This document shows, one piece after another, positions 1,693 to 55,286 of a stretch of DNA of 64,000 bases. Position 1 is the first letter of the stretch. The number at the start of each line of letters is the position of its first letter. Location of the stretch: positions 33,126 to 97,125 of the forward strand of contig JBAYIK010000002.1 of assembly GCA_041665625.1 (NCBI GenBank), written 5' to 3'. The notes under the pieces were generated by a model. That model made no database searches and was not told where the DNA came from. It saw nothing but the letters and a program-made list of their open reading frames with translations. The stretch is from Minisyncoccota bacterium (GTDB lineage Bacteria; Patescibacteriota; Minisyncoccia; Phycocordibacterales; XYD1-FULL-46-19). The translations under genes and the position numbers were made by a program.

Positions 1693-1889
1693 TTCGTAAA
1701 TATGACAAAGTATACCAAAAGTTCTGAACCCTATCCAGGTTGCCCTAAATGGGCCTTATAAAATAAGGCTTAAAAAATGCTCGAATGGAGGGACGCATTT
1801 CGAACGTTTGACTGGGCAAGCTTGTACCCTAACCCTCAATTTCATCTAAATACTATGACTAATTTAATAGCCCTGAGTTTTTAAGTTTT

Positions 1890-2438
1890 ATGGCCAAAAG
1901 CAAAATACGAAAAGTAGAAAAGGACCTTGTCGCTTCCAAGGGCAAGAAAACAAGAGGAAAGAAGGTCTCAAATGTCCCCAAAATGACGGGGGACGATGAC
2001 GGTCTCTTTAAGTTTGTTGACTCCTCTGGGGTTCAAAATCCCCTTATACTATTGGACTTCATTAAGTGGAGTGCAGTACCTAAGGAGACCAGAGAATTAA
2101 AAACCCTTGGCGACTTTGAGACATTTTGTGGCCTCTCAAGAAAAACTCTCTTAAGGTGGACCTCACTTCCTGGATTCTGGGATGAGGTGGCCCTTTACAG
2201 AAACCAAGTAATGCGTAGTTTTTCGACTGAAATGGGTTTTATCTTAGTTAAGAGTGCTCGTCAGAAACTTGACCACAAGCCAGTTGAAATTTTCTTTCGA
2301 CTTTTTGAGGGCCTAAAGAGCGAGACTGAAATCCCCCAAAGGAGTCAGTTGACTGAAGAACAAAAAGAAAAATTAAGAGGGGCACTTAAGCTCACGGGCT
2401 TAGCCTCGATTGTCAAAGATAATCTTGATGACGAGTAG
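1890..2438 (+). CDS. Hypothetical basic protein with an HTH-like segment; possibly phage terminase small-subunit-like
   Basis: 182-aa ORF with a lysine-rich N-terminus, the HTH-like stretch TLGDFETFCGLSRKTLLRW and an acidic C-terminus. The function is an inference. Confidence 0.45.
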   Translation: MAKSKIRKVEKDLVASKGKKTRGKKVSNVPKMTGDDDGLFKFVDSSGVQNPLILLDFIKWSAVPKETRELKTLGDFETFCGLSRKTLLRWTSLPGFWDEVALYRNQVMRSFSTEMGFILVKSARQKLDHKPVEIFFRLFEGLKSETEIPQRSQLTEEQKEKLRGALKLTGLASIVKDNLDDE

Positions 2439-2514
2439 CCTAGAATTTTTTTGCACAACCTCTAAATTATTTCTTAATGGTCGGTCAGGCTGTAGTTTGA
2501 AGTTTTCTCATAAA

Positions 2515-2552
2515 AAGAAAAGGCGGGGTTGGGACCCGCCAATAGTCTTTTT
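2515..2552 (+). terminator. Rho-independent terminator after the 1890-2438 gene
   Basis: A-rich tract, then the hairpin GGCGGG-gttggga-CCCGCC at 2522-2540, then tagtcTTTTT. Confidence 0.5.
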
Positions 2553-2859
2553 GCTTTGGCAATGCCTAAGCTCGCAGACCAAGCGATGGCTTGTTTTTGT
2601 CTGGACGTAGCCACACGTCTCAATTGGGTTGCGGGGATATCGGACACCAGCCAATAAGTCCTTAATCACTACCGCCCTGCCACACTGGCCGAGGAGAAAC
2701 GTCGCGATTGGGCAGAGGCTCCTGGGGCCTCTTCTTAACCCTGACGGGGAGACCTTATCCTAGGCTGGATAGAACAAAAACTCCCTTCTATCTTTATTTA
2801 AGCACCTACTAGCCACTATTACAAGTTTTTTAGTGCCTCCTAATTTTGAGCCAAGGCTG

Positions 2860-2887
2860 TTGAAATAGACCCCCTCTCTGCTATAAT
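2860..2887 (+). promoter_or_regulatory. Sigma70-like promoter: TTGAAA, 16-nt spacer, TATAAT
   Basis: -35 TTGAAA at 2860-2865 and -10 TATAAT at 2882-2887. A highly structured RNA region starts about 7 nt downstream. Confidence 0.5.
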
Positions 2888-2893
2888 GGATTT

Positions 2894-3043
2894 GCGTCCC
2901 ACGTTACCAATTGAATAGTTATTAGCGGTAAAGCACTGCTTTTTTGAGTCCGATTGCGGACTGGAAGGGGCAGTTGACCTCCACAATCGGGGGCTTTACC
3001 GCCTCTGGTAATGTGGGACGCAGGTCGGCTGTCCCTTTTTGTG
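2894..3043 (+). ncRNA. Candidate structured cis-regulatory RNA or small RNA. It has nested long-range helices and an alternative terminator hairpin. The class is unknown.
   Basis: A 15-bp outer helix pairs 2894-2908 (gcgtcccacgttacc) with 3007-3021 (ggtaatgtgggacgc, one G-U). A perfect 10-bp inner helix pairs 2925-2934 (gcggtaaagc) with 2993-3002. Inner hairpins are actgc/gcagt and gtccg-attg-cggac. GGGAC at 3015-3019 can instead pair with GTCCC at 3031-3035, followed by TTTTTGTG, giving a mutually exclusive terminator. No tmRNA, RNase P or SRP motifs were found. Confidence 0.35.
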
Positions 3044-3088
3044 TTATCTAAAAATTAAAATTATTAGCGTCATAATTTTTAATTAAGT

Positions 3089-3532
3089 ATGGAAAAAGAG
3101 TATAAGGGTTATAACGGTTCTGTTATTTTAGGAGACAAGAGTCTTGCCATCAAACGAGGGCTCAGAGGAATTTTATTAGGAGGTGGTGCTATTAGGGGTG
3201 ATAAAACTATCCCTTATTCGAGCATTGTCGCTGTACAACTAAAGAAGGCTGGCTTTGTGGCTGGCTATATTCAGTTTACTCTCTCTGGTGGGTCAGAGGC
3301 TAAAGGTGGATTGTTTCAATCAGCTTACGATGAAAACTCAATCAACTTCCACCGCAAGGGCAATGATAAATTTGCGGAATTAAAAAAGTTAATTGAAGAA
3401 AGAATTGGTAGTGATTCAGTGAGTAGTCACAGCTCTCTGGACGAAATCGCTAAACTGGCAGAGCTAAGAGAAAAAGGGGTTATCACAGAGGAGGAATTTC
3501 AACAAAAGAAAAAACAATTATTAGCTTCTTAA
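3089..3532 (+). CDS. SHOCT-domain protein with a DUF4429-like N-terminal part
   Basis: The C-terminal stretch SSLDEIAKLAELREKGVITEEEFQQKKKQLL is a SHOCT motif. Confidence 0.65.
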   Translation: MEKEYKGYNGSVILGDKSLAIKRGLRGILLGGGAIRGDKTIPYSSIVAVQLKKAGFVAGYIQFTLSGGSEAKGGLFQSAYDENSINFHRKGNDKFAELKKLIEERIGSDSVSSHSSLDEIAKLAELREKGVITEEEFQQKKKQLLAS

Positions 3533-3547
3533 CCATAAAAAATAACT

Positions 3548-4015
3548 ATGGAAGAATTAAAAGGGTGGTTCAAGTTTGAGAATAACCTAAAGAGTATGCG
3601 ATGGTATCACTGGGTTTTACTAGTCGTCTTCTTGGCAGTTTTTGGAAACATAATGTCTGCTGTCTTAATTGATAGTCCAGCTCCAGCACAAAGCCCTAGC
3701 TCAAATCAGCCAAAAACGGAAGAAACGGCAAGCTCTGGCTCATCCATAAATTTTGATAAAGTCGAAAGTGCGGTCAACGCTCTTAAAATTACGGGTCTCG
3801 TTAAAAAAGTAGACTCTAGCTTAAATCAGGCCTACGTTGATGGTCTCAATTGGGGGACGCTTAATGTCGAGGAGAAAAAGACAACAGCACAGGCACTGGC
3901 TTACTACGTCGGCCACGAAGAAGGGACCAACCTCTACTGGGTGGATATCTATGACTGGCAATCTGGCAAAAAATTAGCTAAATTTAGTGATAGTTGGGGC
4001 TTCACGACCTACTAA
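3548..4015 (+). CDS. Hypothetical membrane-anchored extracytoplasmic protein
   Basis: N-terminal TM helix WYHWVLLVVFLAVFGNIMSAVLI, followed by a Ser/Pro-rich linker. Confidence 0.55.
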   Translation: MEELKGWFKFENNLKSMRWYHWVLLVVFLAVFGNIMSAVLIDSPAPAQSPSSNQPKTEETASSGSSINFDKVESAVNALKITGLVKKVDSSLNQAYVDGLNWGTLNVEEKKTTAQALAYYVGHEEGTNLYWVDIYDWQSGKKLAKFSDSWGFTTY

Positions 4016-4020
4016 CTAAA

Positions 4021-4572
4021 ATGTTGCCTAAAAATAAAAGATTCTTCTCCCTATTTTTGGCTTTTGGCCTGTTGTCTTGCGGACAGAGCGTTTTAGCTAT
4101 CCAGACCTCTATCATAGCCCCCGTAGAGGTCCATTTTGCCCCGTACGAGCTAATAACTCCTTTCATAGTCAAAGAGATTAAACAGGCCACTTCGACCATA
4201 CACGGCTCACTTTATGGCATTACAAACAAGGCCGTTGCAGACGCCCTAATTGAGCGAGACAGGTCAGGGGTTGAGGTCAAGATTGGCGAGGATAAACTCC
4301 AGTCGGCTGGCAAGTATGACCTACACAGATATTTATCAAGTAATGGAGTAGAAGTCGTTATCAAGAAGACCTCGGCACTGGAGCACAACAAATGGCTGAT
4401 TATCGACAATCAGGTGGTGCTTGAGGGTTCTTTCAATTACTCCAACAACGCTCAAAGTCAGGACAATAGCTTTATCATCTTTCGAAGTCCACAAATTGCC
4501 AGTCTGTTCGAGCAGAATTTTCTCAAAATTATGGCGAGAGATAAATATCCAGTAGACCCAACCATAAAATAA
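4021..4572 (+). CDS. Phospholipase D (HKD) superfamily endonuclease, Nuc-like, probably a secreted lipoprotein
   Basis: HKD motif HNKWLIIDNQVVLEGSFNYSNNAQ. The signal peptide with a lipobox-like LLSCGQ follows the ATG at 4021. The ORF track's alternative start is 3994. Confidence 0.7.
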   Translation: MLPKNKRFFSLFLAFGLLSCGQSVLAIQTSIIAPVEVHFAPYELITPFIVKEIKQATSTIHGSLYGITNKAVADALIERDRSGVEVKIGEDKLQSAGKYDLHRYLSSNGVEVVIKKTSALEHNKWLIIDNQVVLEGSFNYSNNAQSQDNSFIIFRSPQIASLFEQNFLKIMARDKYPVDPTIK

Positions 4573-4587
4573 AGCAACTAAGATAGG

Positions 4588-5145
4588 CTAAGTTTGGGAA
4601 TCATTGATAAATTGTCTAGCATTTTCGGAAACCCTTCCTGCGATAGAAGCTAAATTTGTTATTGCCGTTATAAAATTAAATTTATGAATAGGTTGAGCGA
4701 TATCTAGACAGCGAAGACTGCTTTTAAGATTCTCCCATTCGTGGAAATAATGTCCATAGAACCACCTATCAATTATTTTCTGAGTGGTCTCAACTTCGTC
4801 ATTAATCACGATTCTAATCATTGGATTGCACATCAGATTATTATAAGACTGCTTACACTTAATTATACTATTTCTCATCGCTGTGTTTTGGTTGCTATTT
4901 AACAACAAATCACAAATTTCTAGTATCGTAAGTCCCTCCTTTTTTAAGGTGATTTTTCTTAAATCAAGCAACATAGACCTTAGCTCATCTTCGTCGAATC
5001 CTGTAATGTCCTGGGATAGGGATTTATCAGTTTTATAATCCAACCTAAAAGCTATATTATCGACTCTCTTAAAAAACCGAGAAGACTGAACTCTCGTCAC
5101 GACATCTATATATGCTTCTATTTTTTCTCTATCTTGCTGGGTCAT
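4588..5145 (-). CDS. Hypothetical protein, 185 aa, translationally coupled to the upstream 821-aa gene
   Basis: The ORF overlaps the stop of 5129-7594 by 17 nt. No recognisable motif. Confidence 0.55.
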   Translation of the reverse strand: MTQQDREKIEAYIDVVTRVQSSRFFKRVDNIAFRLDYKTDKSLSQDITGFDEDELRSMLLDLRKITLKKEGLTILEICDLLLNSNQNTAMRNSIIKCKQSYNNLMCNPMIRIVINDEVETTQKIIDRWFYGHYFHEWENLKSSLRCLDIAQPIHKFNFITAITNLASIAGRVSENARQFINDSQT

Positions 5146-7594
5146 CTGGTGTTTCTTCTTCTGTCTCTTCTGACTTAGCCTTTTCCTGTAAACTTTTTAT
5201 GTCTTCCTCAATATCATCGTTTGCGGGACTATCTGCTGGCCACTTGCCCCATACCTTATAAGTGAACCAATCAATATCTGCTACATCTATCAAGGAGTAC
5301 ATCATAGACTGAGCATCATCCCTTATGCTCATATTACCGTTTAGTTTTTCGTAATCAAAGTTATATCTCCACTTACCCAACTCAACATAAAGTTGTTCTT
5401 TGTTCGGGCTAATCCTGTCTGGGTCAACACCAACAGGTAAATTGCTAAAGTATTTGTCATTATACTTTTTCTCAAAATCTAGAATCTTTAATTTTAATTC
5501 AGCATAGACATCCTCCCACTTATACTTAAGAGCTAAAATTCCTAAGTAGCAAGCCCTTTCAAAGATTCGAGGTTCATCATAACCGTAGCCTTCCGTTGTT
5601 TTATCTATCGCTTGGCCAGCCATAGAGGACAAAGAATTTATTGAATCGCTAGCGAGTTTTTTATTTTGAAGATTTGTCATTACTAGCAACCCCGTTTTTG
5701 CGACACTCTCAACTAAGGACCTAAAATTATTTGAACCGCCATCAAATTTTTCAGCGTGATGGGTAAACCAATAAGGAAGATGAAGATTCCAGCCAAGGTG
5801 TTTATATAGCTCCATTTTCTCGCCAGAGAACTCTGTGTTCTGAGCAATTTCTATAATCAAACTATTAACAGTAAAGAGTAGACGTCCAACGCTCTCTGCA
5901 AGATGGCTGTCGCAATTCTTAATCTTTTCTGATAGAGCCCTCAGACTTCCGTAGAGCTCCTCAAAAAATTCAACTATGTCGTTGCGGTAGCTGTCCTTTT
6001 CTCTTTTTTCTGTGAGAGCAAAATAATAATTTACTATTTGAGCAATCACAATGTAGAGCTGGTCATAGGCTTTTGTCATCGTGAGAGACGAGCTAATGTC
6101 ACTAGGTATATATCCGCTTTGTCTAGACACAAAGACATATTGGGCAATGGTCGCTATATGCTCCAGGGCGGGGTTAACCTGATATCTTGTAACCATTTTT
6201 TTGCTAAAAAACGAAGCCCCAATTATTTTAAGCAAATTGATATTACACTGGTCGATTATAATTAATTGTTTCTCCGCCAATCCATAAAAAGCAATCTCTT
6301 GTAGCTTATCCTGAATACCCCGAAGCATAGGGGTAAGTCCCTTATCTGAAGCGATTTCTCCAATGTTACCTAATTTATCGATACTCTGAAAAACGACCTC
6401 AAGATTTTTGCCCCTCTTCCCGATATCGATGAATTGAGAAAGGTTCCCTTCCAGACTCTCCAGTATTGGATTTTCGTTCGTCTGTCCTACATAAGTTATG
6501 TCCTTTGCTTTTAACGCTAAAAATTCATAAATACTGAGAAAAAGGGTTGCATTACCATCCTTTCCCTCCCTTATAAACTTTTCTCCAGCTTTATTTAAGC
6601 GTTCAAAATTGTTAAAGAGAAACCTCTGGCTATCGCTTTCAACGGCGAGAAAGGCAACAGCTGAAGGCATTGCAATAGAAGATGTCCTACGAACCTCAAG
6701 GAATCTCCCCAATATATTTCTTACAGCAATGAAACCCCTTTTTGTTGTTCCAACTTCCTGTTTGTCTGATAATTTTAAAGATATTTCGACGAGATTCTCA
6801 ATTTGTCTATCAAGATTATTAAAATAGGGCTGTAGAAAGGTATTGTAGGTTTTTGCGAGGGCTTCATTTTCTGACAATTTTTTATCTCTAGATACCATAA
6901 CCTTAGCAATTTTTCTTGCGTCGGATTCTACCAGGTTCAGAAACTGAATAGCTTGTTTTTCTAGAAAATAAATTGCGTTTGCGGGGTTTATCTTTTGTCG
7001 AACTGTTTTGTACTGCCAATCAATAAGGGCAAAGATAGCCCCTGCCAAAATAAGAGAAATTAGGGTTATGTACGAACTTACTGGTTCTAAAATTGTCTCA
7101 AGTCCTCCAACGTATAGACCTGCCCCAAAAAATAAGAGGGTTATAATAATAACAAGCAGGTAAACAATTTTTTCTTTCCAATCGTGTATGTACACGTCAA
7201 AATACTGAGAAGAGTACAGGTCAGAGGCACTTTGTATCATAAAAATAGAGATGGTAAACACTATTGCAATTGCACCCCCAGACATTGCCCCCACAGCGAT
7301 AAGATAATTGCTCAGGATATCTTGAGTTATCGAATGCCCTCCAAAACTAACTAAGAAAATGCCTATAATCAGACCAAGAAAGGCGAAACCAAACCTTAGG
7401 AGAACGTCGAATTTCCTTCCGAAGAAATTCTGTAATCTCCTCCACCTGTTCAGGTAAAGCCAGAAAGTAAGACTATAGCTGTACTGAAGGTAGGATAGCC
7501 AGCTTTGTTCCCAGCCACTCATTTCTTTTAGTAAATCTCTCACTTTTTCATTATTGACCAAAAGACTTGTTCTGTAAAGAATTGTCAAGTACAA
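5129..7594 (-). CDS. Hypothetical large membrane protein: N-terminal 4-TM block plus a roughly 600-aa cytoplasmic domain of unknown function
   Basis: 821-aa ORF. TM helices are FAFLGLIIGIFLVSFGG, LIAVGAMSGGAIAIVFTISIFMI, YLLVIIITLLFFGAGLYVGG and ITLISLILAGAIFALI. The true start may be downstream, for example at MSGWEQ. No catalytic motif recognised. Confidence 0.6.
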   Translation of the reverse strand: MYLTILYRTSLLVNNEKVRDLLKEMSGWEQSWLSYLQYSYSLTFWLYLNRWRRLQNFFGRKFDVLLRFGFAFLGLIIGIFLVSFGGHSITQDILSNYLIAVGAMSGGAIAIVFTISIFMIQSASDLYSSQYFDVYIHDWKEKIVYLLVIIITLLFFGAGLYVGGLETILEPVSSYITLISLILAGAIFALIDWQYKTVRQKINPANAIYFLEKQAIQFLNLVESDARKIAKVMVSRDKKLSENEALAKTYNTFLQPYFNNLDRQIENLVEISLKLSDKQEVGTTKRGFIAVRNILGRFLEVRRTSSIAMPSAVAFLAVESDSQRFLFNNFERLNKAGEKFIREGKDGNATLFLSIYEFLALKAKDITYVGQTNENPILESLEGNLSQFIDIGKRGKNLEVVFQSIDKLGNIGEIASDKGLTPMLRGIQDKLQEIAFYGLAEKQLIIIDQCNINLLKIIGASFFSKKMVTRYQVNPALEHIATIAQYVFVSRQSGYIPSDISSSLTMTKAYDQLYIVIAQIVNYYFALTEKREKDSYRNDIVEFFEELYGSLRALSEKIKNCDSHLAESVGRLLFTVNSLIIEIAQNTEFSGEKMELYKHLGWNLHLPYWFTHHAEKFDGGSNNFRSLVESVAKTGLLVMTNLQNKKLASDSINSLSSMAGQAIDKTTEGYGYDEPRIFERACYLGILALKYKWEDVYAELKLKILDFEKKYNDKYFSNLPVGVDPDRISPNKEQLYVELGKWRYNFDYEKLNGNMSIRDDAQSMMYSLIDVADIDWFTYKVWGKWPADSPANDDIEEDIKSLQEKAKSEETEEETPDDPAR

Positions 7595-7725
7595 TAAAAA
7601 TACTACTGAAAATCAGATAGTCTATATCGTGAAGATGGGTTTTTAGTCTTCTGAATAAGCTCAAGGTAGACAGGAATCTTCGCAAAGGCTAAAGGCTTTA
7701 TTTATAAGATGAAAATGAAAATAAT

Positions 7726-8133
7726 ATGGGTTACCAACCTTACGGTTCGAACTTAGACGACATAGCGTACAGGGTAAATTTCGACCCGAATATACTCTGT
7801 ATTTTAGTAAACGGACACGAACTTAGCCGACTTCACTCTAAGACAGACATAGCTGATTTTTTTGAGTATGTTAACTCTCACCCAAATATAGCTATCAAAC
7901 TGAGCGACCTAAAAAAGCTTAGGCTCAAGAAAGGTCTTGACGATATTTTGAGAGATATTGGTTTTAGAGGAATCTTGGCAAAAATGTTTTTTCCTAAGAT
8001 GACCAACAGTGAAATTATTTTTAGAAATCCTATTTACCAAAAGGACCTAGAGGAACTAGGTATCGACTATGTAGATGCGTGGATACTGCTCCATACCCCT
8101 AAAAGAAAGGGGGCTTTCGACGTAACTTCTTAA
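7726..8133 (+). CDS. Hypothetical protein, 135 aa
   Basis: ORF in the accessory block, divergent from the 821-aa gene. Confidence 0.45.
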   Translation: MGYQPYGSNLDDIAYRVNFDPNILCILVNGHELSRLHSKTDIADFFEYVNSHPNIAIKLSDLKKLRLKKGLDDILRDIGFRGILAKMFFPKMTNSEIIFRNPIYQKDLEELGIDYVDAWILLHTPKRKGAFDVTS

Positions 8134-8191
8134 CACGTTTTAGCCCTCCTCTATAATTATCTGTGTTAGCCTGTCTACATAACCGATAATT

Positions 8192-8437
8192 ATGGAAAAT
8201 GAAAATAAAAAATTCCTGACCAGGGACTTCTACATAACCGCCTTCTTAATAGCGAAGGGGTATAAAGTCTCAGATGTTGATATGACAATCCCAGACAAAA
8301 TGTTCTTCTCCTTTGAGGACTTCAAAGGTAGGGAGCGTTTGGTTAGGGATTTTTTATGTGGGCAAGCTTCAGTTGAGCCCCAGAAATTTATTTCAGGGAT
8401 AAAAATACTGAAGTCTTTGATACACGCAAGAGATTAA
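8192..8437 (+). CDS. Hypothetical small protein, 81 aa
   Basis: ORF. It might be a directionality or regulatory factor because it sits next to the recombinase, but this is speculative. Confidence 0.4.
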   Translation: MENENKKFLTRDFYITAFLIAKGYKVSDVDMTIPDKMFFSFEDFKGRERLVRDFLCGQASVEPQKFISGIKILKSLIHARD

Positions 8438-8454
8438 ACAAGTTAGTAATAAAA

Positions 8455-8928
8455 ATGAAAATGAACAAACCACAGAGAACCAACCCTAAGAGCAATGTTG
8501 TAAAACTGGCCTTATGCACGGTGGGGCTCATATGCGAAAGGAGGAAAAACAAGTTGCCGACTCTTGCCTCCCTTCTGATATGCGTCGCACCGAAAAACTT
8601 TCTTTCTGTGGTCCATATCGTCAAACTTTTTATTTCCTCTAAAATCAGAAGGAAAAGTCGGGCTAATGGTAAAAATAAAATTATAATAGGTAGGTTAATT
8701 GTTCATAAACTAGACGGCAATTTTGATACTGAGGATATTGAGCTGTCTTGTTCAGGACCGAAGCAGTCAATAAGCCCAGAGACAATTAGAGAATTCAAGC
8801 AGATTGTGGAGGAAGAATACGGGCTAGTGATAGACAAGACTGACGCCTCTAGAATACTTTGTGGGTTGACCAACTTTTTCGACTTGCTAGCAAAAATAGA
8901 TTATCGAGAAAAAATAAAAGATGGTTGA
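8455..8928 (+). CDS. Hypothetical protein; the real start is probably internal
   Basis: ORF immediately upstream of the recombinase. Confidence 0.35.
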   Translation: MKMNKPQRTNPKSNVVKLALCTVGLICERRKNKLPTLASLLICVAPKNFLSVVHIVKLFISSKIRRKSRANGKNKIIIGRLIVHKLDGNFDTEDIELSCSGPKQSISPETIREFKQIVEEEYGLVIDKTDASRILCGLTNFFDLLAKIDYREKIKDG

Positions 8929-8973
8929 AAATTATAAGTTGAGTTTAATTCGCTAATTGTTAGAATTAAAATA

Positions 8974-10560
8974 ATGAAAGATAATAATATGGAAAAAATT
9001 ACAAAAATGGTTAAGGCAGTAATCTTCCCCAGAGTCTCTTCGAAGGAACAGGAGGAAACAGGTTACTCCCTAGACGCTCAGCAGGAGCTGTTGAAGAATT
9101 ATAGTGACAAGCACTCGTTTGAAGTGGCCAAGGCCTTTAGAGTTTCGGAATCGGCTAGTGGTAAAAAACAAAGGTCGACCTTCAACGAAATGATGGCCTA
9201 TATGGATAAGAACAAAATAAACATACTCGTCTGCGAAAAGGTCGACAGATTAACTCGTAATTTTAAGGACGCAATTTTTATTGATGAATGGCTTGATAAA
9301 AACGAAAATCGACAGATTCATTTAGTCAAAGACGGTATAGTCTTGCACAAGTATTCTAAATCACAAGAAAAGCTTAATTGGGGAATCAGGATACTGTTCG
9401 CCAAAAATTATACTGATAATCTTTCGGAGGAAGTTAAAAAAGGCCAAAAACAGAAGTCAAAGGAAGGGTGGCTACCAACAAAGCCACCGCTGGGTTATAG
9501 AACGATAGGAGAGAAGGGCCACAAGGTGCACGTTGTTGATGAGAAGGTTGCTCCTTATATCAAAAAAATGTTTGACCTTTATGCCACAGGCAACTACTCA
9601 ACAGACTCTTTGGGGGACAAAATGTATAAGCTTGGGCTAAGAAGCCGTGGTGGTTTTCGAGTAGTTAAAAGCAAGATTCACAAACTTCTCTCTGACCCCT
9701 TCTACTATGGAATGTTTGTCTGGAAAGGTGAGGTCTATCAAGGGAAGCACGAACCGTTAATTGATAAAGACCTCTTTGGCCAAGTCAGGGAAAAAATGAC
9801 CAGGGGTAGTGCTCCCTACCACAACAAACATTTTAAGGAATTAAGAGGTAAGATATTTTGTGGAAATTGTGGCAAGACTGTAACCTGGGAAAAACAGAAA
9901 GGCTCTTGGTATGGGGCTTGCAAACAGTGCAAAGCTCAACTAGCCGACAAGAGGCAATATATTAAACAAGAAAATGTTGAGAACTACTTGCTGGACCTTA
10001 TAATCGCTACAGCACCCAAAAACGAAAGGATTCTTGCTGTTCTTAACAAGGCCCTCAAAGAGAGTCATAGCGAAGAAATTATATATCACGAAACACAGGT
10101 CCAGAGTATAAACAATAGCCTTACTCGTATCCAACAGAGGAAAAAGGTTCTCTATGATGACCGCCTAGATGGTAGAATTTCTCCCTCTGAATATGACCAA
10201 AAAATTGAGGAGTTTAGGCAAGAAGAAACTGACTTAATAAATTCGCTAAGCAAATTGAAGTCTGACAACACAGAATACTATAGAGTTGGTATCGCCCTTC
10301 ACGAGCTCGCTCTACGAGCAAGAGAAATATATTTAAGCAAAAAGGCTACAGTGGAAGAGCGTCGCTTGCTCTTGTCTTACTCTTTCTCGAACGTCTCGGT
10401 TCTACGGGGAGATATAAGGGCAGAGTACACAAAAGCGTTCCAGTTTTTGATTGATTGGATGCCGAAGGTAAATGAAACTCTCGAACTCACAAAAGACGTT
10501 GAGAATAAACAACAAAAGAGCACTTTCGTGCCCTCTTGTCCTATCCTGCTCCGCGGGTAG
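8974..10560 (+). CDS. Large serine recombinase (integrase / resolvase family)
   Basis: The N-terminal catalytic domain VIFPRVSSKEQEE...ILVCEKVDRLTRN carries the catalytic Ser. A recombinase domain follows, then the zinc ribbon CGNCGK...CKQCK and a coiled-coil C-terminus. The stop codon 10558-10560 overlaps the 3' end of tRNA exon 2. Confidence 0.85.
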   Translation: MKDNNMEKITKMVKAVIFPRVSSKEQEETGYSLDAQQELLKNYSDKHSFEVAKAFRVSESASGKKQRSTFNEMMAYMDKNKINILVCEKVDRLTRNFKDAIFIDEWLDKNENRQIHLVKDGIVLHKYSKSQEKLNWGIRILFAKNYTDNLSEEVKKGQKQKSKEGWLPTKPPLGYRTIGEKGHKVHVVDEKVAPYIKKMFDLYATGNYSTDSLGDKMYKLGLRSRGGFRVVKSKIHKLLSDPFYYGMFVWKGEVYQGKHEPLIDKDLFGQVREKMTRGSAPYHNKHFKELRGKIFCGNCGKTVTWEKQKGSWYGACKQCKAQLADKRQYIKQENVENYLLDLIIATAPKNERILAVLNKALKESHSEEIIYHETQVQSINNSLTRIQQRKKVLYDDRLDGRISPSEYDQKIEEFRQEETDLINSLSKLKSDNTEYYRVGIALHELALRAREIYLSKKATVEERRLLLSYSFSNVSVLRGDIRAEYTKAFQFLIDWMPKVNETLELTKDVENKQQKSTFVPSCPILLRG

Positions 10561-10586
10561 GACTCGAACCTACGACCAACCCGTTA

Positions 10587-11133
10587 CACTAATCCTGATG
10601 TTTCCAAAAGGCGTGGACTATATCATCACCCGGTCTGGGTGCAAGGCGCTTCCCCCGTACTTACGGAGTACTCTCTTTCGAGATAGTCTCTGAACCTTCC
10701 CTCTGATTTCTCTCGGGGCTTGGCTGCTGATTACCCTCGTCTTGACGTTAGGGCTTCCAGCAATTCACCTTGTTATTCATTCCTAAATTCCTTTAGGAAG
10801 CTGCGTAATACCTTCGTGTACTTCCATGTGACAATTAGCGCAAAGCAAAACGCATTTAGCAATCTCCTTCTCTATCTTCTCCCAAGATCTAGTTAATCCT
10901 CTTACAGATAAACCGAAATCTTTTTTCTTAGGATCAATATGATGAAAACTGAGAGCGCTCTGACTCTTAGAATAACCACATATCGCACACTTGCTACCTT
11001 TTGACGCACGAGCCATTTCTCTTAATTTTTTACGACGAAGAGATACAGCTTGGCGCAAATAGACAGCACGGTCTTTATAAGTTCTTTTGTCTGGCATACT
11101 CATACAAGTATACCATATTTGAACTCATGTGAC
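10587..11133 (-). other. Group I intron in the tRNA anticodon loop, carrying an HNH endonuclease ORF
   Basis: Reading the minus strand after the ORF: P-like gaattgctggaag, Q-like aatcagcagcc, R element GTTCAGAGACTAT (forward 10683-10696) and S element GATATAGTCCACGC (forward 10611-10624). P7 pairs GACTA with TAGTC. The 5' splice follows a U and the 3' splice follows a G. Confidence 0.7.
10783..11103 (-). CDS. HNH homing endonuclease encoded inside the group I intron
   Basis: 106-aa ORF with CAICGYS...HHIDPKK...CANCHMEVH, which is an HNH motif with a zinc-finger-like Cys/His arrangement. It lies between the intron 5' end and the P3-P9 core. Confidence 0.75.
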   Translation of the reverse strand: MSMPDKRTYKDRAVYLRQAVSLRRKKLREMARASKGSKCAICGYSKSQSALSFHHIDPKKKDFGLSVRGLTRSWEKIEKEIAKCVLLCANCHMEVHEGITQLPKGI

Positions 11134-11262
11134 ACAGCGGGCCGCTCTACCAACTGAGCTACCGCGGAATATAATTTTTAAGGAACTCCTCAATTTTAAA
11201 CAAAAAAGACGAAAAAGGCAAGGATTCAAAACCTCTCGATTTTATGGCTTTTTCCTGTATAA

Positions 11263-28399: not shown

Positions 28400-29116
28400 T
28401 TATAAACTATTTTTCTTCAGCTTCCACTTATCAATCTCGGCGTGGTGGCCGGAGAGGAGGACCTTAGGGACGCGATATTTCTTTTTGTTGAAAGTAAGAA
28501 CCTCAGGGCGGGTATAAATCTCCGAAATTGAGATGCGTCGCTCCTCGATTGATTCATCTTTACCTAAGACGCCCGGTAAACGACGAGTGATAGCGTCTAC
28601 GACGATCATCGCAGGAACTTCTCCACCGGTCAGTATATACGGACCGACTGATAAGTCATCAGCTTTAAGAATTTTTTTGACCCGAGCGTCGAGGCCCTCA
28701 TAACGTCCGCAGATCAAGACAATATGTTTAGTCATTAATTTGTCAGACCATTCCCCTTTTCTAAAGCCAGCAAGTTTATCGGCGAGAATATTGTCGAAAA
28801 TTTGGCCAGCGGGAGAAAAAATATAAATTTTGGGCTTAGTCTTCGAAGTCTTCGTTTTAGCGAGAGCTTTACTCACGGCCTTAAGCACTGGCTCAGCCAA
28901 CATCACCATACCGGGACCACCTCCGTAAGGACGACCGTCAGTCTTTTTGTAATCTAATCTACCATCCACTTGTTTGCCAATTGTACCAGCGTAGTCACGC
29001 GGATTATAATAAGAAATTTTTATTTTCTTCTCTTTCTGGGCGCGACCAAGAATCGAGGCGTTTAGATACGCCTCGATGGTCTCGGGAAACAAAGTAATAA
29101 TGTGGAAATTTAACAT
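28400..29116 (-). CDS. trmD: tRNA (guanine37-N1)-methyltransferase
   Basis: SPOUT fold with the TrmD-type N-terminus MLNFHIITLFPE. Confidence 0.85.
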   Translation of the reverse strand: MLNFHIITLFPETIEAYLNASILGRAQKEKKIKISYYNPRDYAGTIGKQVDGRLDYKKTDGRPYGGGPGMVMLAEPVLKAVSKALAKTKTSKTKPKIYIFSPAGQIFDNILADKLAGFRKGEWSDKLMTKHIVLICGRYEGLDARVKKILKADDLSVGPYILTGGEVPAMIVVDAITRRLPGVLGKDESIEERRISISEIYTRPEVLTFNKKKYRVPKVLLSGHHAEIDKWKLKKNSL

Positions 29117-55213: not shown

Positions 55214-55286
55214 AGCCGGTGAGAGGATTCGGACCCCTGGCATCCACTTTACAAAAGTGGCGCTCTACCAACTGAGCTACACCGGC
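55214..55286 (-). tRNA. tRNA-Thr(UGU)
   Basis: The minus strand reads GCCGGTGTAGCTCAGTTGGTAGAGCGCCACTTTTGTAAAGTGG...GGTCCGAATCC...CACCGGC with discriminator U. Confidence 0.85.

What the first reader, a model, noticed from the sequence alone, without database searches (positions are those of the whole stretch)
10549..11168. Group I intron with an HNH homing endonuclease inside a tRNA anticodon loop (probably tRNA-Asn GUU)
Two tRNA halves lie 547 nt apart on the minus strand. Their acceptor stems are perfectly complementary (TCCGCGG with CCGCGGA), and the D-arm, T-arm and anticodon-stem halves are canonical. The intervening sequence has group I core elements: P-like gaauugcuggaag, Q-like aaucagcagcc, R GUUCAGAGACUAU and S GAUAUAGUCCACGC. 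P7 pairs GACUA with UAGUC. The exon junction lies after a U, and an omega-G precedes exon 2. A 106-aa HNH endonuclease ORF sits in the 5' peripheral region. The splice register makes the mature anticodon GUU (Asn), which is supported by the G73 discriminator. UGU (Thr) is the alternative. Bacterial tRNA group I introns are best known in tRNA-Leu, tRNA-fMet, tRNA-Ile and tRNA-Arg. An Asn or Thr host with an HNH ORF in a CPR genome would be unusual.
Basis: partly seen in the sequence, partly recalled or inferred. Interest (0 to 1): 0.8.

Follow-up and report, generated by a model that had tools for sequence, protein, structure and literature searches.

The report
HNH-carrying group I intron in tRNA-Asn
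This is a real self-splicing-type (group I) intron carrying a small HNH homing-endonuclease gene, inserted in the anticodon loop of the tRNA-Asn gene of a Patescibacteria (CPR) bacterium; this exact arrangement was described and shown to splice in a 2026 paper, so it is a correct but no longer novel finding.

Summary
Rfam Intron_gpI hits 10594-10819 (-) at 78.7 bits. Two tRNA halves flank a 547-nt intron (10587-11133). The 106-aa ORF (10783-11103) is an HNH endonuclease.

The Asn (GUU, position 35/36) register is right and Thr (UGU, 33/34) is wrong:
- The G before the 3' exon is present in 68/68 homologous loci in the Asn register, against 42/68 in the Thr register.
- The internal guide GCAG pairs C32-U35, with the U35·G wobble in 61/61 sequences.
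- A covarying P9.0 helix ends just before that G.
- Uninterrupted tRNA-Asn genes are 73/73 identical to the Asn-register product. One of them (L086) lies beside the same neighbouring gene.

RpoB places the host in Paceibacteria, near Candidatus Vogelbacteria.

The class is published (Nakagawa et al., mSystems 2026, PMC13011429): subgroup IA introns at 35/36 of Patescibacteria tRNA-Asn, some with HNH genes, spliced in vitro. So this is a new member of a known kind.

Extras found here:
- The ORF lies in the P1 loop and overlaps the guide sequence and P2.
- It has a conserved leaderless-type promoter.
- Free-standing copies exist next to ORF-less introns.
- At least 587 species genomes encode the endonuclease family.
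- An ~8.8-kb serine-recombinase element abuts the tRNA 3' end.

The parts
11134..11168 (-). tRNA-Asn 5' exon, positions 1-35, ending ...C32 U33 G34 U35
   Evidence: The BLAST match to uninterrupted tRNA-Asn genes ends exactly at 11134.
10587..11133 (-). Group I intron, 547 nt, subgroup IA-like, inserted between anticodon positions 35 and 36. The terminal G (omega-G) is at 10587.
   Evidence: Rfam RF00028 at 78.7 bits covers 10594-10819. Boundaries come from intron-less alleles. The terminal G is present in 68/68 homologous loci.
10549..10586 (-). tRNA-Asn 3' exon (U36 A37 A38 ... A72 at 10550, G73 at 10549)
   Evidence: U1-A72 and G73 occur in 68/68 loci.
10783..11103 (-). HNH homing-endonuclease ORF. 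It is 106 aa from the ATG at 11103; the likely true start is the ATG at 11097, giving 104 aa (MPDKRTY...). It lies in the P1 loop (L1). Its 3' end encodes the internal guide sequence and half of P2. The stop codon TAG is at 10785-10783.
11107..11115 (-). Extended -10-like element TGGTATACT (TG at 11115-11114, TATACT at 11112-11107), 9 nt upstream of the ATG at 11097. Inferred to be an internal promoter giving a leaderless endonuclease mRNA.
   Evidence: One search lists the hexamer with its TG. In 49/67 homologous introns a -10-like hexamer lies 5-10 nt before an in-frame start, 41 of them with TG, against 2.2 expected in shuffles. Function is inferred, not shown.
10800..10805 (-). Internal guide sequence (C)GCAG(C), the 3' strand of P1. 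Pairs: G10804·U35 wobble, C10803-G34, A10802-U33, G10801-C32. C10805 pairs with intron G+1. C10800 can pair with G31.
   Evidence: RNAalifold on 61 sequences: the four exon pairs are kept in 61/61 and the G+1 pair covaries. GCAGC is found 313-345 nt into the intron in 68/68 loci.
10782..10797 (-). P2 hairpin CCUAAA-GGAA-UUUAGG
   Evidence: All six pairs are kept, with compensatory changes, across 61 sequences.
10642..10772 (-). Core from P3 5' strand to P3 3' strand. P3: 10772-10766 / 10648-10642. P4: 10762-10757 / 10730-10725. P5: 10753-10751 / 10736-10734. P6/P6a: 10724-10713 / 10704-10694. P7 5' strand: 10688-10683. P7.1: 10683-10672. P7.2: 10668-10653.
   Evidence: P3, P4, P5, P6a, P7.1 and P7.2 show compensatory changes. 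P7 is invariant in 61/61.
10588..10641 (-). P8 (10641-10637 / 10631-10627), J8/7, P7 3' strand (10621-10616), P9.0 (10614-10613 / 10589-10588) and P9 (10611-10605 / 10600-10595)
   Evidence: P9.0 covaries (A-U 56 and G-C 5; C-G 37 and U-A 23) and ends immediately before the terminal G.
11193..11221 (-). Promoter-like site TTGCCT-17-TAAAAT upstream of the tRNA gene
   Evidence: Consensus scan only. It is weak evidence: 2 sites were found against 1.6 expected.
10511..10540 (-). Terminator-like hairpin just after the tRNA 3' end. It lies inside the neighbouring integrated element.
   Evidence: Consensus scan only.

Best explanation
The locus is a tRNA-Asn(GUU) gene of a Paceibacteria-type (CPR/Patescibacteria) bacterium. 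A 547-nt subgroup-IA-like group I intron interrupts it between anticodon nucleotides 35 and 36.

How it most likely works:
1. The precursor tRNA is transcribed.
2. The guide sequence GCAG (10804-10801) pairs with C32-U35 of the anticodon loop and forms P1, with the U35·G wobble marking the 5' splice site.
3. An external guanosine attacks after U35.
4. The terminal G (10587), placed by the 2-bp P9.0 helix, enters the P7 guanosine site, and the exons are joined.
5. The product is a 73-nt tRNA with loop CUGUUAA.

The roughly 325-nt P1 loop carries a 104/106-aa HNH endonuclease gene. Its last codons (..ITQLP..) are themselves the guide sequence and the 5' half of P2.

Inferred steps: the endonuclease is made from its own extended -10 promoter inside the intron, as a leaderless mRNA. 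It cuts intron-less tRNA-Asn alleles near the 35/36 site, so the intron is copied in by repair (homing).

What is shown and what is not: the RNA anatomy, the splice register, the homology and the presence/absence polymorphism are shown here. Splicing is shown only for a published homologue. Endonuclease activity, its target and the promoter are inferred.
For: Ribozyme
- Rfam Intron_gpI: 78.7 bits, full length.
- P2, P3, P4, P5, P6a, P7.1, P7.2, P8, P9.0 and P9 keep pairing, with compensatory changes, in 61 homologous introns. P7 is invariant.
- The core is 79% identical to the GCA_016700035.1 tRNA-Asn intron, which Nakagawa et al. showed to self-splice precisely at 35/36. It is 80% identical to a published Paceibacteria intron.

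Splice register
- The terminal G is present in 68/68 loci in the Asn register and in 42/68 in the Thr register.
- U35·G occurs in 61/61, while U33 pairs with A.
- The Asn-register product is 73/73 identical to uninterrupted tRNA-Asn genes L086 and L090. BLAST matches break exactly at 10586|11134.
- All 68 loci have U1-A72 and G73. The window's own tRNA-Thr(UGU) at 55214-55286 has G1-C72 and U73.
- The anticodon stem covaries across the intron: 61/61 standard pairs at four positions.

Endonuclease
- Pfam HNH scores above its cut-off; PHROG HNH families reach E 5e-29.
- All Cys4 and H-N-H positions are invariant across 26 relatives.
- It is 53-62% identical to the ORFs inside the published HNH-bearing tRNA-Asn introns.

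Mobility
- L086 has an identical tRNA-Asn without an intron, next to the same M3 peptidase gene.

Promoter
-.

Host
- RpoB is 86% identical to Candidatus Vogelbacteria and Paceibacterota proteins.
Against: - There are no RNA data or biochemistry for this locus.
- P9 in the window has two mismatched positions.
- P10 is weak: UAA with UUA across a 1-nt bulge, and it is not conserved.
- P1 cannot covary, because the tRNA-Asn loop is invariant. Its support is conservation, not compensatory change.
- Only 64 kb of a 135-kb contig was visible, so a second, intron-less tRNA-Asn elsewhere in the genome is not excluded.
- The promoter and leaderless-mRNA reading rests on a motif and its spacing alone.
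Confidence: 0.93

Rival explanations
1. The host gene is tRNA-Thr(UGU), with the intron at 33/34: 5' exon ...CU, 3' exon UGUAA....
For: This register also has U at -1 and G at the intron end in the window, and it gives a clean cloverleaf. ARAGORN with intron mode calls it Thr(tgt).
Against: - The G needed at the intron end in this register is missing in 26/68 homologous loci. That position lies inside the covarying P9.0 helix.
- U33 pairs with A, not G, in P1.
- Uninterrupted genes carry CTGTTAAC, not CTTGTAAC, and match 73/73.
- U1-A72 and G73 fit bacterial tRNA-Asn (from my knowledge of E. coli tRNA-Asn). The window's real tRNA-Thr(UGU) has G1-C72 and U73.
- Nakagawa et al. showed by sequencing the spliced product that this miscall is an artefact.
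Confidence: 0.02
2. The intron is a decayed relic that no longer splices, so the split gene is a tRNA pseudogene and another tRNA-Asn gene serves the cell.
For: P9 has two mismatches in the window. Only 64 kb of the genome could be inspected. No expression data exist.
Against: - The match to Rfam covers the full model at 78.7 bits.
- The window sequence carries every nucleotide conserved in at least 90% of the core across 61 relatives, including P7, J8/7, the guide sequence and the terminal G.
- Both exon halves are 100% identical to working-type uninterrupted genes.
- No other tRNA-Asn is in the window.
Confidence: 0.04
3. The intron splices, but the HNH ORF no longer acts as a homing endonuclease. 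It would be retained only because its 3' end is the guide sequence and P2, or it would serve another role such as helping splicing.
For: - The ORF overlaps essential RNA elements, which could preserve part of it without selection on the protein.
- The protein is very small and has no recognisable separate DNA-binding domain.
- No close solved homologue exists.
Against: - The whole 100-aa protein is conserved, not only its 3' end: 41 invariant columns among 26 relatives of 67-92% identity, including all metal-binding and catalytic residues.
- The open frame is kept in almost all of the 68 loci.
- A promoter-like element with fixed spacing to the start codon is conserved.
- The intron is present or absent among lineages with identical tRNA-Asn.
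- The same protein also occurs free-standing, where no RNA overlap could preserve it.
Confidence: 0.12

Closest known systems
Patescibacteria tRNA-Asn(GUU) group I introns at position 35/36, subgroup IA, with or without HNH homing-endonuclease genes (Nakagawa et al., mSystems 2026, PMC13011429; Table S3 examples GCA_016699425.1, GCA_001029735.1, GCA_000503835.1)
   Same: - Same host tRNA, insertion site (CUGU|...G|UAA) and guide sequence GCAGC.
- Same P2-to-P9 core, 78-80% identical.
- Same placement of the HNH ORF between the 5' splice site and the guide sequence; proteins are 53-62% identical.
- Same phylum.
   Different: It is a different organism: an uncultured Vogelbacteria-like MAG contig, ENA ERZ27249449. 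This particular intron has not been tested experimentally. The intron spliced in the paper lacks the ORF.
Synechocystis PCC 6803 tRNA-fMet group I intron encoding I-SspI (Bonocora and Shub 2001; from my own knowledge, and cited as a class in PMC13011429)
   Same: It is a bacterial tRNA anticodon-loop group I intron that carries a homing-endonuclease gene.
   Different: The host tRNA (fMet), the insertion site (33/34) and the endonuclease family (PD-(D/E)XK, PF11645, not HNH) all differ.
Classical bacterial tRNA group I introns: cyanobacterial/plastid tRNA-Leu(UAA) at 34/35, Azoarcus tRNA-Ile and Agrobacterium tRNA-Arg
   Same: [quoted passage not shown]
   Different: Bacterial tRNA introns are mostly subgroup IC: 81% overall, and none of the Patescibacteria ones. 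They sit at other positions, they usually lack an ORF, and (from my own knowledge) subgroup IC introns lack P7.1/P7.2.
Phage HNH intron endonucleases (I-HmuI type) and phage free-standing HNH genes (PHROG 2255, 3106)
   Same: They share the HNH fold and motif. PHROG matches reach E 5e-29, and IMG/VR relatives are 42-62% identical.
   Different: The phage relatives are larger proteins: the matching profiles are 211-252 positions long. Among the 79 viral loci examined, only 3 had an interrupted-tRNA call spanning the HNH gene, and none was tRNA-Asn.

Membership tests
Group I intron (Rfam RF00028) | Conserved catalytic core (P3-P8 with the P/Q/R/S elements), scored by a covariance model above the curated threshold | tested here: met
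   78.7 bits against a gathering score of 50, E 2.6e-18, model positions 1-253.
Group I intron (Rfam RF00028) | 5' splice site after a U that forms a G·U wobble with the internal guide sequence in P1 | tested here: met
   U35·G10804. P1 (C32-G, U33-A, G34-C, U35·G) is kept in 61/61 relatives.
Group I intron (Rfam RF00028) | [quoted passage not shown] | tested here: met
   G at 10587. It is present in 68/68 homologous loci and is preceded by the covarying P9.0 helix.
Group I intron (Rfam RF00028) | Intact P7 guanosine-binding helix | tested here: met
   GACUA/UAGUC is invariant in 61/61. This is conservation only; no covariation is possible.
Group I intron (Rfam RF00028) | Self-splicing with a guanosine cofactor | not testable with these tools
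   A homologue with 79% core identity (GCA_016700035.1) splices in vitro at 35/36.
Subgroup IA | Extra hairpins P7.1 and P7.2 between the P7 5' strand and the P3 3' strand (Michel and Westhof classification, from my own knowledge) | tested here: met
   Two hairpins at 10683-10672 and 10668-10653, both with compensatory changes. Nakagawa et al. assign 25 of 28 introns at 35/36 to subgroup IA. Subgroup covariance models were not available here.
tRNA-Asn(GUU) | The spliced product folds as a cloverleaf with anticodon GUU | tested here: met
   ARAGORN run on the Asn-register product.
tRNA-Asn(GUU) | Sequence identity to uninterrupted tRNA-Asn genes, and Asn-type U1-A72 and G73 | tested here: met
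   73/73 identity to L086 and L090; 18 contigs carry the exact 35-nt junction. U1-A72 and G73 occur in 68/68 loci.
tRNA-Asn(GUU) | Charged with asparagine (or Asp followed by amidation) in the cell | not testable with these tools
   None.
HNH endonuclease (PF01844) acting as a homing endonuclease | HNH motif with its metal-binding residues | tested here: met
   PF01844 at 27 bits against a cut-off of 21.4. C39, C42, C88, C91, H54, H55, N90 and H96 are invariant in 26 relatives.
HNH endonuclease (PF01844) acting as a homing endonuclease | Encoded within a mobile intron, and intron-less alleles of the target exist | tested here: met
   The ORF lies in the P1 loop. An intron-less allele sits at the syntenic locus L086.
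HNH endonuclease (PF01844) acting as a homing endonuclease | Cleaves the intron-less allele near the insertion site and promotes homing | not testable with these tools
   None.

The most novel reading that the evidence does not exclude
The same small HNH endonuclease family exists in two configurations around Patescibacteria tRNA-Asn. In the first it lies inside the intron's P1 loop, with its last codons doubling as the guide sequence and P2. In the second it is free-standing, immediately upstream of or divergent from a tRNA-Asn whose intron lacks an ORF (10 of 80 loci). Both forms carry a conserved extended -10 element at leaderless spacing. This would be a natural series showing how a free-standing endonuclease and an intron associate or separate (the 'collaborative homing' idea of Bonocora and Shub 2009, recalled from my own knowledge). 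It would also mean the endonuclease is expressed independently of the tRNA precursor. The 2026 paper does not use the terms 'free-standing' or 'leaderless', and it mentions 'promoter' only for the T7 construct.
Probability: 0.45. Interest if true: 0.4.

Novelty: new member of a known kind. Interest (0 to 1): 0.25.

Why it matters
Practical point: standard tRNA finders either miss this gene or call it tRNA-Thr. A genome like this one then looks as if it lacks tRNA-Asn, which distorts completeness estimates for CPR genomes.

Biological point: the locus adds one more example to a recently described, phylum-typical class. The comparative data gathered here suggest the HNH-bearing form is much more widespread than the four cases seen in complete genomes. 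At least 587 GTDB species genomes encode the endonuclease family, although the tRNA-Asn intron context was checked in only the best 80 loci and found in 67. The data also suggest that the endonuclease has its own leaderless-type promoter and that it also occurs free-standing. Each of these points can be tested. They bear on how homing endonucleases and introns come together.

Tried and rejected
- Default ARAGORN did not find the gene. Intron mode found it but called it Thr(tgt). I rejected that call on comparative grounds.
- ARAGORN calls of His, Ser and Thr(cgt) for homologous loci are artefacts of the same register problem. All 68 loci share CTGT|...G|TAA.
- I looked for a long duplicated tRNA 3' end (an att repeat) in the window and found none at up to 3 mismatches over 30 nt. 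Only a 5-bp identity exists at the two junctions of the neighbouring element.
- A search of the paper's supplement for 'HNH' or 'PF01844' found nothing, because the stored spreadsheet is truncated. I used Table S3 instead.
- The PDB sequence search gave only a marginal hit (E 0.0055) to the HNH domain of a group II intron maturase, 6ME0. It was not informative.
- Viral contigs hold many relatives at 42-62% identity, but none is in a tRNA-Asn intron. A phage origin for this locus is therefore not supported.
- P10 pairing was examined and is weak and not conserved. I do not use it as evidence.
- The 2020 tFind preprint text held here does not name Asn or HNH. For the point that tFind had already catalogued the Asn.4Ug class I rely on Nakagawa's statement.
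Full report
**1. Observation**

On the minus strand, a canonical tRNA 5' half starts at 11168: TCCGCGG-TA-GCTC-AGTTGGTA-GAGC-G-GCCCG-CUGU. A 3' half ends at G73 = 10549: UAA-CGGGU-UGGUC-GUAGG-UUCGAGU-CCUAC-CCGCGGA-G.

Rfam's Intron_gpI model matches 10594-10819 (-) over its full length at 78.7 bits (gathering score 50, E 2.6e-18).

ORF 10783-11103 (-), 106 aa, passes Pfam HNH (27 bits against 21.4) and matches phage HNH families down to E 5e-29.

**2. Which tRNA, and where exactly are the splice sites?**

TGT/GT is repeated at both junctions, so two registers give a perfect cloverleaf: CU|...G|UGUAA (Thr UGU, 33/34) and CUGU|...G|UAA (Asn GUU, 35/36). ARAGORN in intron mode picks Thr. Six independent lines decide for Asn.

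- (a) Terminal G. I fetched 80 genome loci encoding relatives of the HNH protein. In 67 of them, plus the window, an interrupted tRNA spans the ORF. The base before UAA is G in 68/68. The base that would have to be the terminal G in the Thr register is G in only 42/68.
- (b) P1. The sequence GCAGC lies 313-345 nt into the intron in 68/68 loci. An RNAalifold fold of 61 ORF-deleted sequences pairs it with the loop: C32-G, U33-A, G34-C and U35·G, each in 61/61. Intron G+1 pairs with the preceding C, with some covariation. The wobble U that defines a group I 5' splice site is therefore U35, not U33.
- (c) P9.0. A 2-bp helix (10614-10613 with 10589-10588) covaries (A-U 56 and G-C 5; C-G 37 and U-A 23) and ends directly before G10587. 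This also explains why the position 2 nt upstream of the terminal G varies.
- (d) Intron-less alleles. A scan of metagenome contigs for the 35-nt Asn-register junction found 18 contigs. L086 and L090 carry uninterrupted tRNA-Asn genes that are 73/73 identical to the predicted product. BLAST alignments of all 18 break exactly at window 10586|11134. The intron is therefore 10587-11133, 547 nt.
- (e) Identity elements. All 68 loci have U1-A72 and G73, as in E. coli tRNA-Asn (my own knowledge). The window's own tRNA-Thr(UGU) at 55214-55286 has G1-C72 and U73.
- (f) Exon co-evolution. The anticodon stem halves on either side of the intron covary, with 61/61 standard pairs at four positions and three to four pair types each. 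The split gene is therefore evolving as a working tRNA.

**3. Ribozyme anatomy**

After the guide sequence come:
- P2: CCUAAA-GGAA-UUUAGG, 10797-10782.
- P3: 10772-10766 / 10648-10642.
- P4, P5 and P6/P6a.
- P7: 10688-10683 / 10621-10616.
- P7.1 and P7.2, two hairpins between P7 and P3'.
- P8, P9.0 and P9.

Every helix except the invariant P1 and P7 shows compensatory changes across 61 relatives. From my own knowledge, P7.1/P7.2 mark subgroup IA. This agrees with the published assignment of this intron class.

The window's core carries every position conserved in at least 90% of the family. Weak points are two mismatches in P9 and a poor, unconserved P10.

**4. The endonuclease gene**

The ORF occupies the P1 loop, between the 5' splice site and the guide sequence. 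Its last codons...GGT ATT ACG CAG CTT CCT AAA GGA ATT TAG, are the guide sequence and the 5' strand and loop of P2. The stop codon lies in the P2 3' strand. This explains the conserved C-terminal ITQLP motif.

The family is large. Almost all are labelled as Patescibacteria lineages. The Cys4 zinc ligands and the H-N-H residues are invariant in an alignment of 26 sequences. No close solved structure exists.

A TG-extended -10-like hexamer (TGGTATACT, 11115-11107) lies 9 nt before the second ATG (11097). That ATG matches the MP..RTY N-terminus of the homologues. In 49/67 homologous introns a -10-like hexamer lies 5-10 nt before an in-frame start, 41 of them with TG, against 2.2 expected after shuffling. 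I infer an internal promoter giving a leaderless mRNA. This is inferred, not shown.

**5. Host and mobility**

The window is part of ENA contig ERZ27249449:k141_1276007, 135 kb. RpoB is 86% identical to Candidatus Vogelbacteria and Paceibacterota proteins, so the CPR attribution holds.

L086 carries the identical tRNA-Asn without an intron, next to the same M3 oligopeptidase gene at about 71% nucleotide identity. This is an empty site in a related lineage. L034, whose tRNA is 97% identical, has the intron and the ORF. This presence/absence pattern fits gain or loss by homing.

**6. Comparison with what is known**

Nakagawa et al. (mSystems 2026, PMC13011429; bioRxiv July 2025) reported the following:
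- 15 tRNA-Asn(GUU) genes with group I introns at 35/36 among 95 complete Patescibacteria genomes.
- Frequent miscalls as Thr(UGU) 33/34 by ARAGORN and tFind.
- Precise in vitro self-splicing at 35/36 for GCA_016700035.1, blocked at exon ligation by mutating the terminal G.
- Subgroup IA assignment.
- Four tRNA-Asn introns with HNH (PF01844) genes.

Their Table S3 sequences show the same architecture. The window's core is 78-80% identical to theirs, and its protein is 53-62% identical to their intron ORFs. The locus passes every sequence-level membership test for that class. Only the biochemical tests cannot be run here.

**7. Verdict**

It is a new member of a known kind, and interest is low (0.25).

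Modest additions from this work:
- The ORF overlaps the guide sequence and P2.
- A leaderless-type promoter is conserved.
- The endonuclease family is very widespread.
- Free-standing copies of the same endonuclease lie beside tRNA-Asn genes whose introns lack an ORF.
- A serine-recombinase element is integrated at the 3' end of the same tRNA.

Noticed in passing
window 1778-10551 (serine recombinase ORF 8974-10560, + strand): An ~8.8-kb block looks like an integrated element at the 3' end of the tRNA-Asn. The 74 nt that directly abut the tRNA 3' end in the intron-less syntenic locus L086 are found at window 1709-1782 instead. Both junctions share TGCTC (1778-1782 and 10547-10551). A large serine recombinase (Resolvase + Recombinase + Zn ribbon; PHROG integrase, E 4e-74) sits at the tRNA-proximal end, and its ORF reads 12 nt into the tRNA. 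Cargo includes a PLD-like protein (3994-4572) and an 821-aa protein with no family hit (5129-7594)..
   Followed up: partly
L086 1773-1852 and 3457-3538: In the intron-less relative, the same 72-nt flank plus 12 nt of the tRNA-Asn 3' end occurs twice, 1.7 kb apart. The sequence after the distal copy resembles the left end of the window's element. The tRNA-Asn 3' end therefore seems to be a recurrent integration site in this lineage.
   Followed up: partly
L020, L028, L032, L054, L059, L068 (same strand, upstream); L006, L047, L063, L076 (opposite strand): In 10 of 80 loci the homologous HNH gene is free-standing, right next to a tRNA-Asn. In 9 of them the intron is short and has no ORF; L028 is cut off just after the tRNA start. 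The free-standing proteins lack the ITQLP C-terminus. In L020 the ORF-less intron's P1 loop (GGCATAAC) equals the last nucleotides before the guide sequence in the ORF-bearing introns. This suggests movement of the ORF into or out of the intron.
   Followed up: partly
window 28985-29081 (+): ARAGORN calls a 97-nt 'tRNA-Lys(ttt)' with mismatched stems and a very long variable arm. It lies inside ORF 28400-29116 (-) and Rfam tRNA does not find it. It is probably a false positive.
   Followed up: partly
L016, L056, L059-L061, L068, L069, L077, L079, L080: Several contigs carrying this Patescibacteria-type tRNA-Asn intron and HNH gene are labelled Burkholderiales, Omnitrophica, Methylomirabilota, Blastocatellia, Gammaproteobacteria, Pseudomonadales or Heliobacteriaceae. 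This could be mis-binning, automatic mislabelling or real horizontal spread.
   Followed up: no
L159 and L160 (IMG/VR contigs), near position 2639: Two viral contigs have group I R/S-like motifs (AGAGACTA ... GATATAGTC) a few hundred nt upstream of an HNH relative. These may be phage group I introns associated with the same endonuclease superfamily.
   Followed up: no
window 11130-11135 (-): The -35-like hexamer (GTGTCA) paired with the internal -10 element spans the exon-intron junction. If the promoter is real, part of it is supplied by the anticodon loop and the 5' splice site.
   Followed up: no
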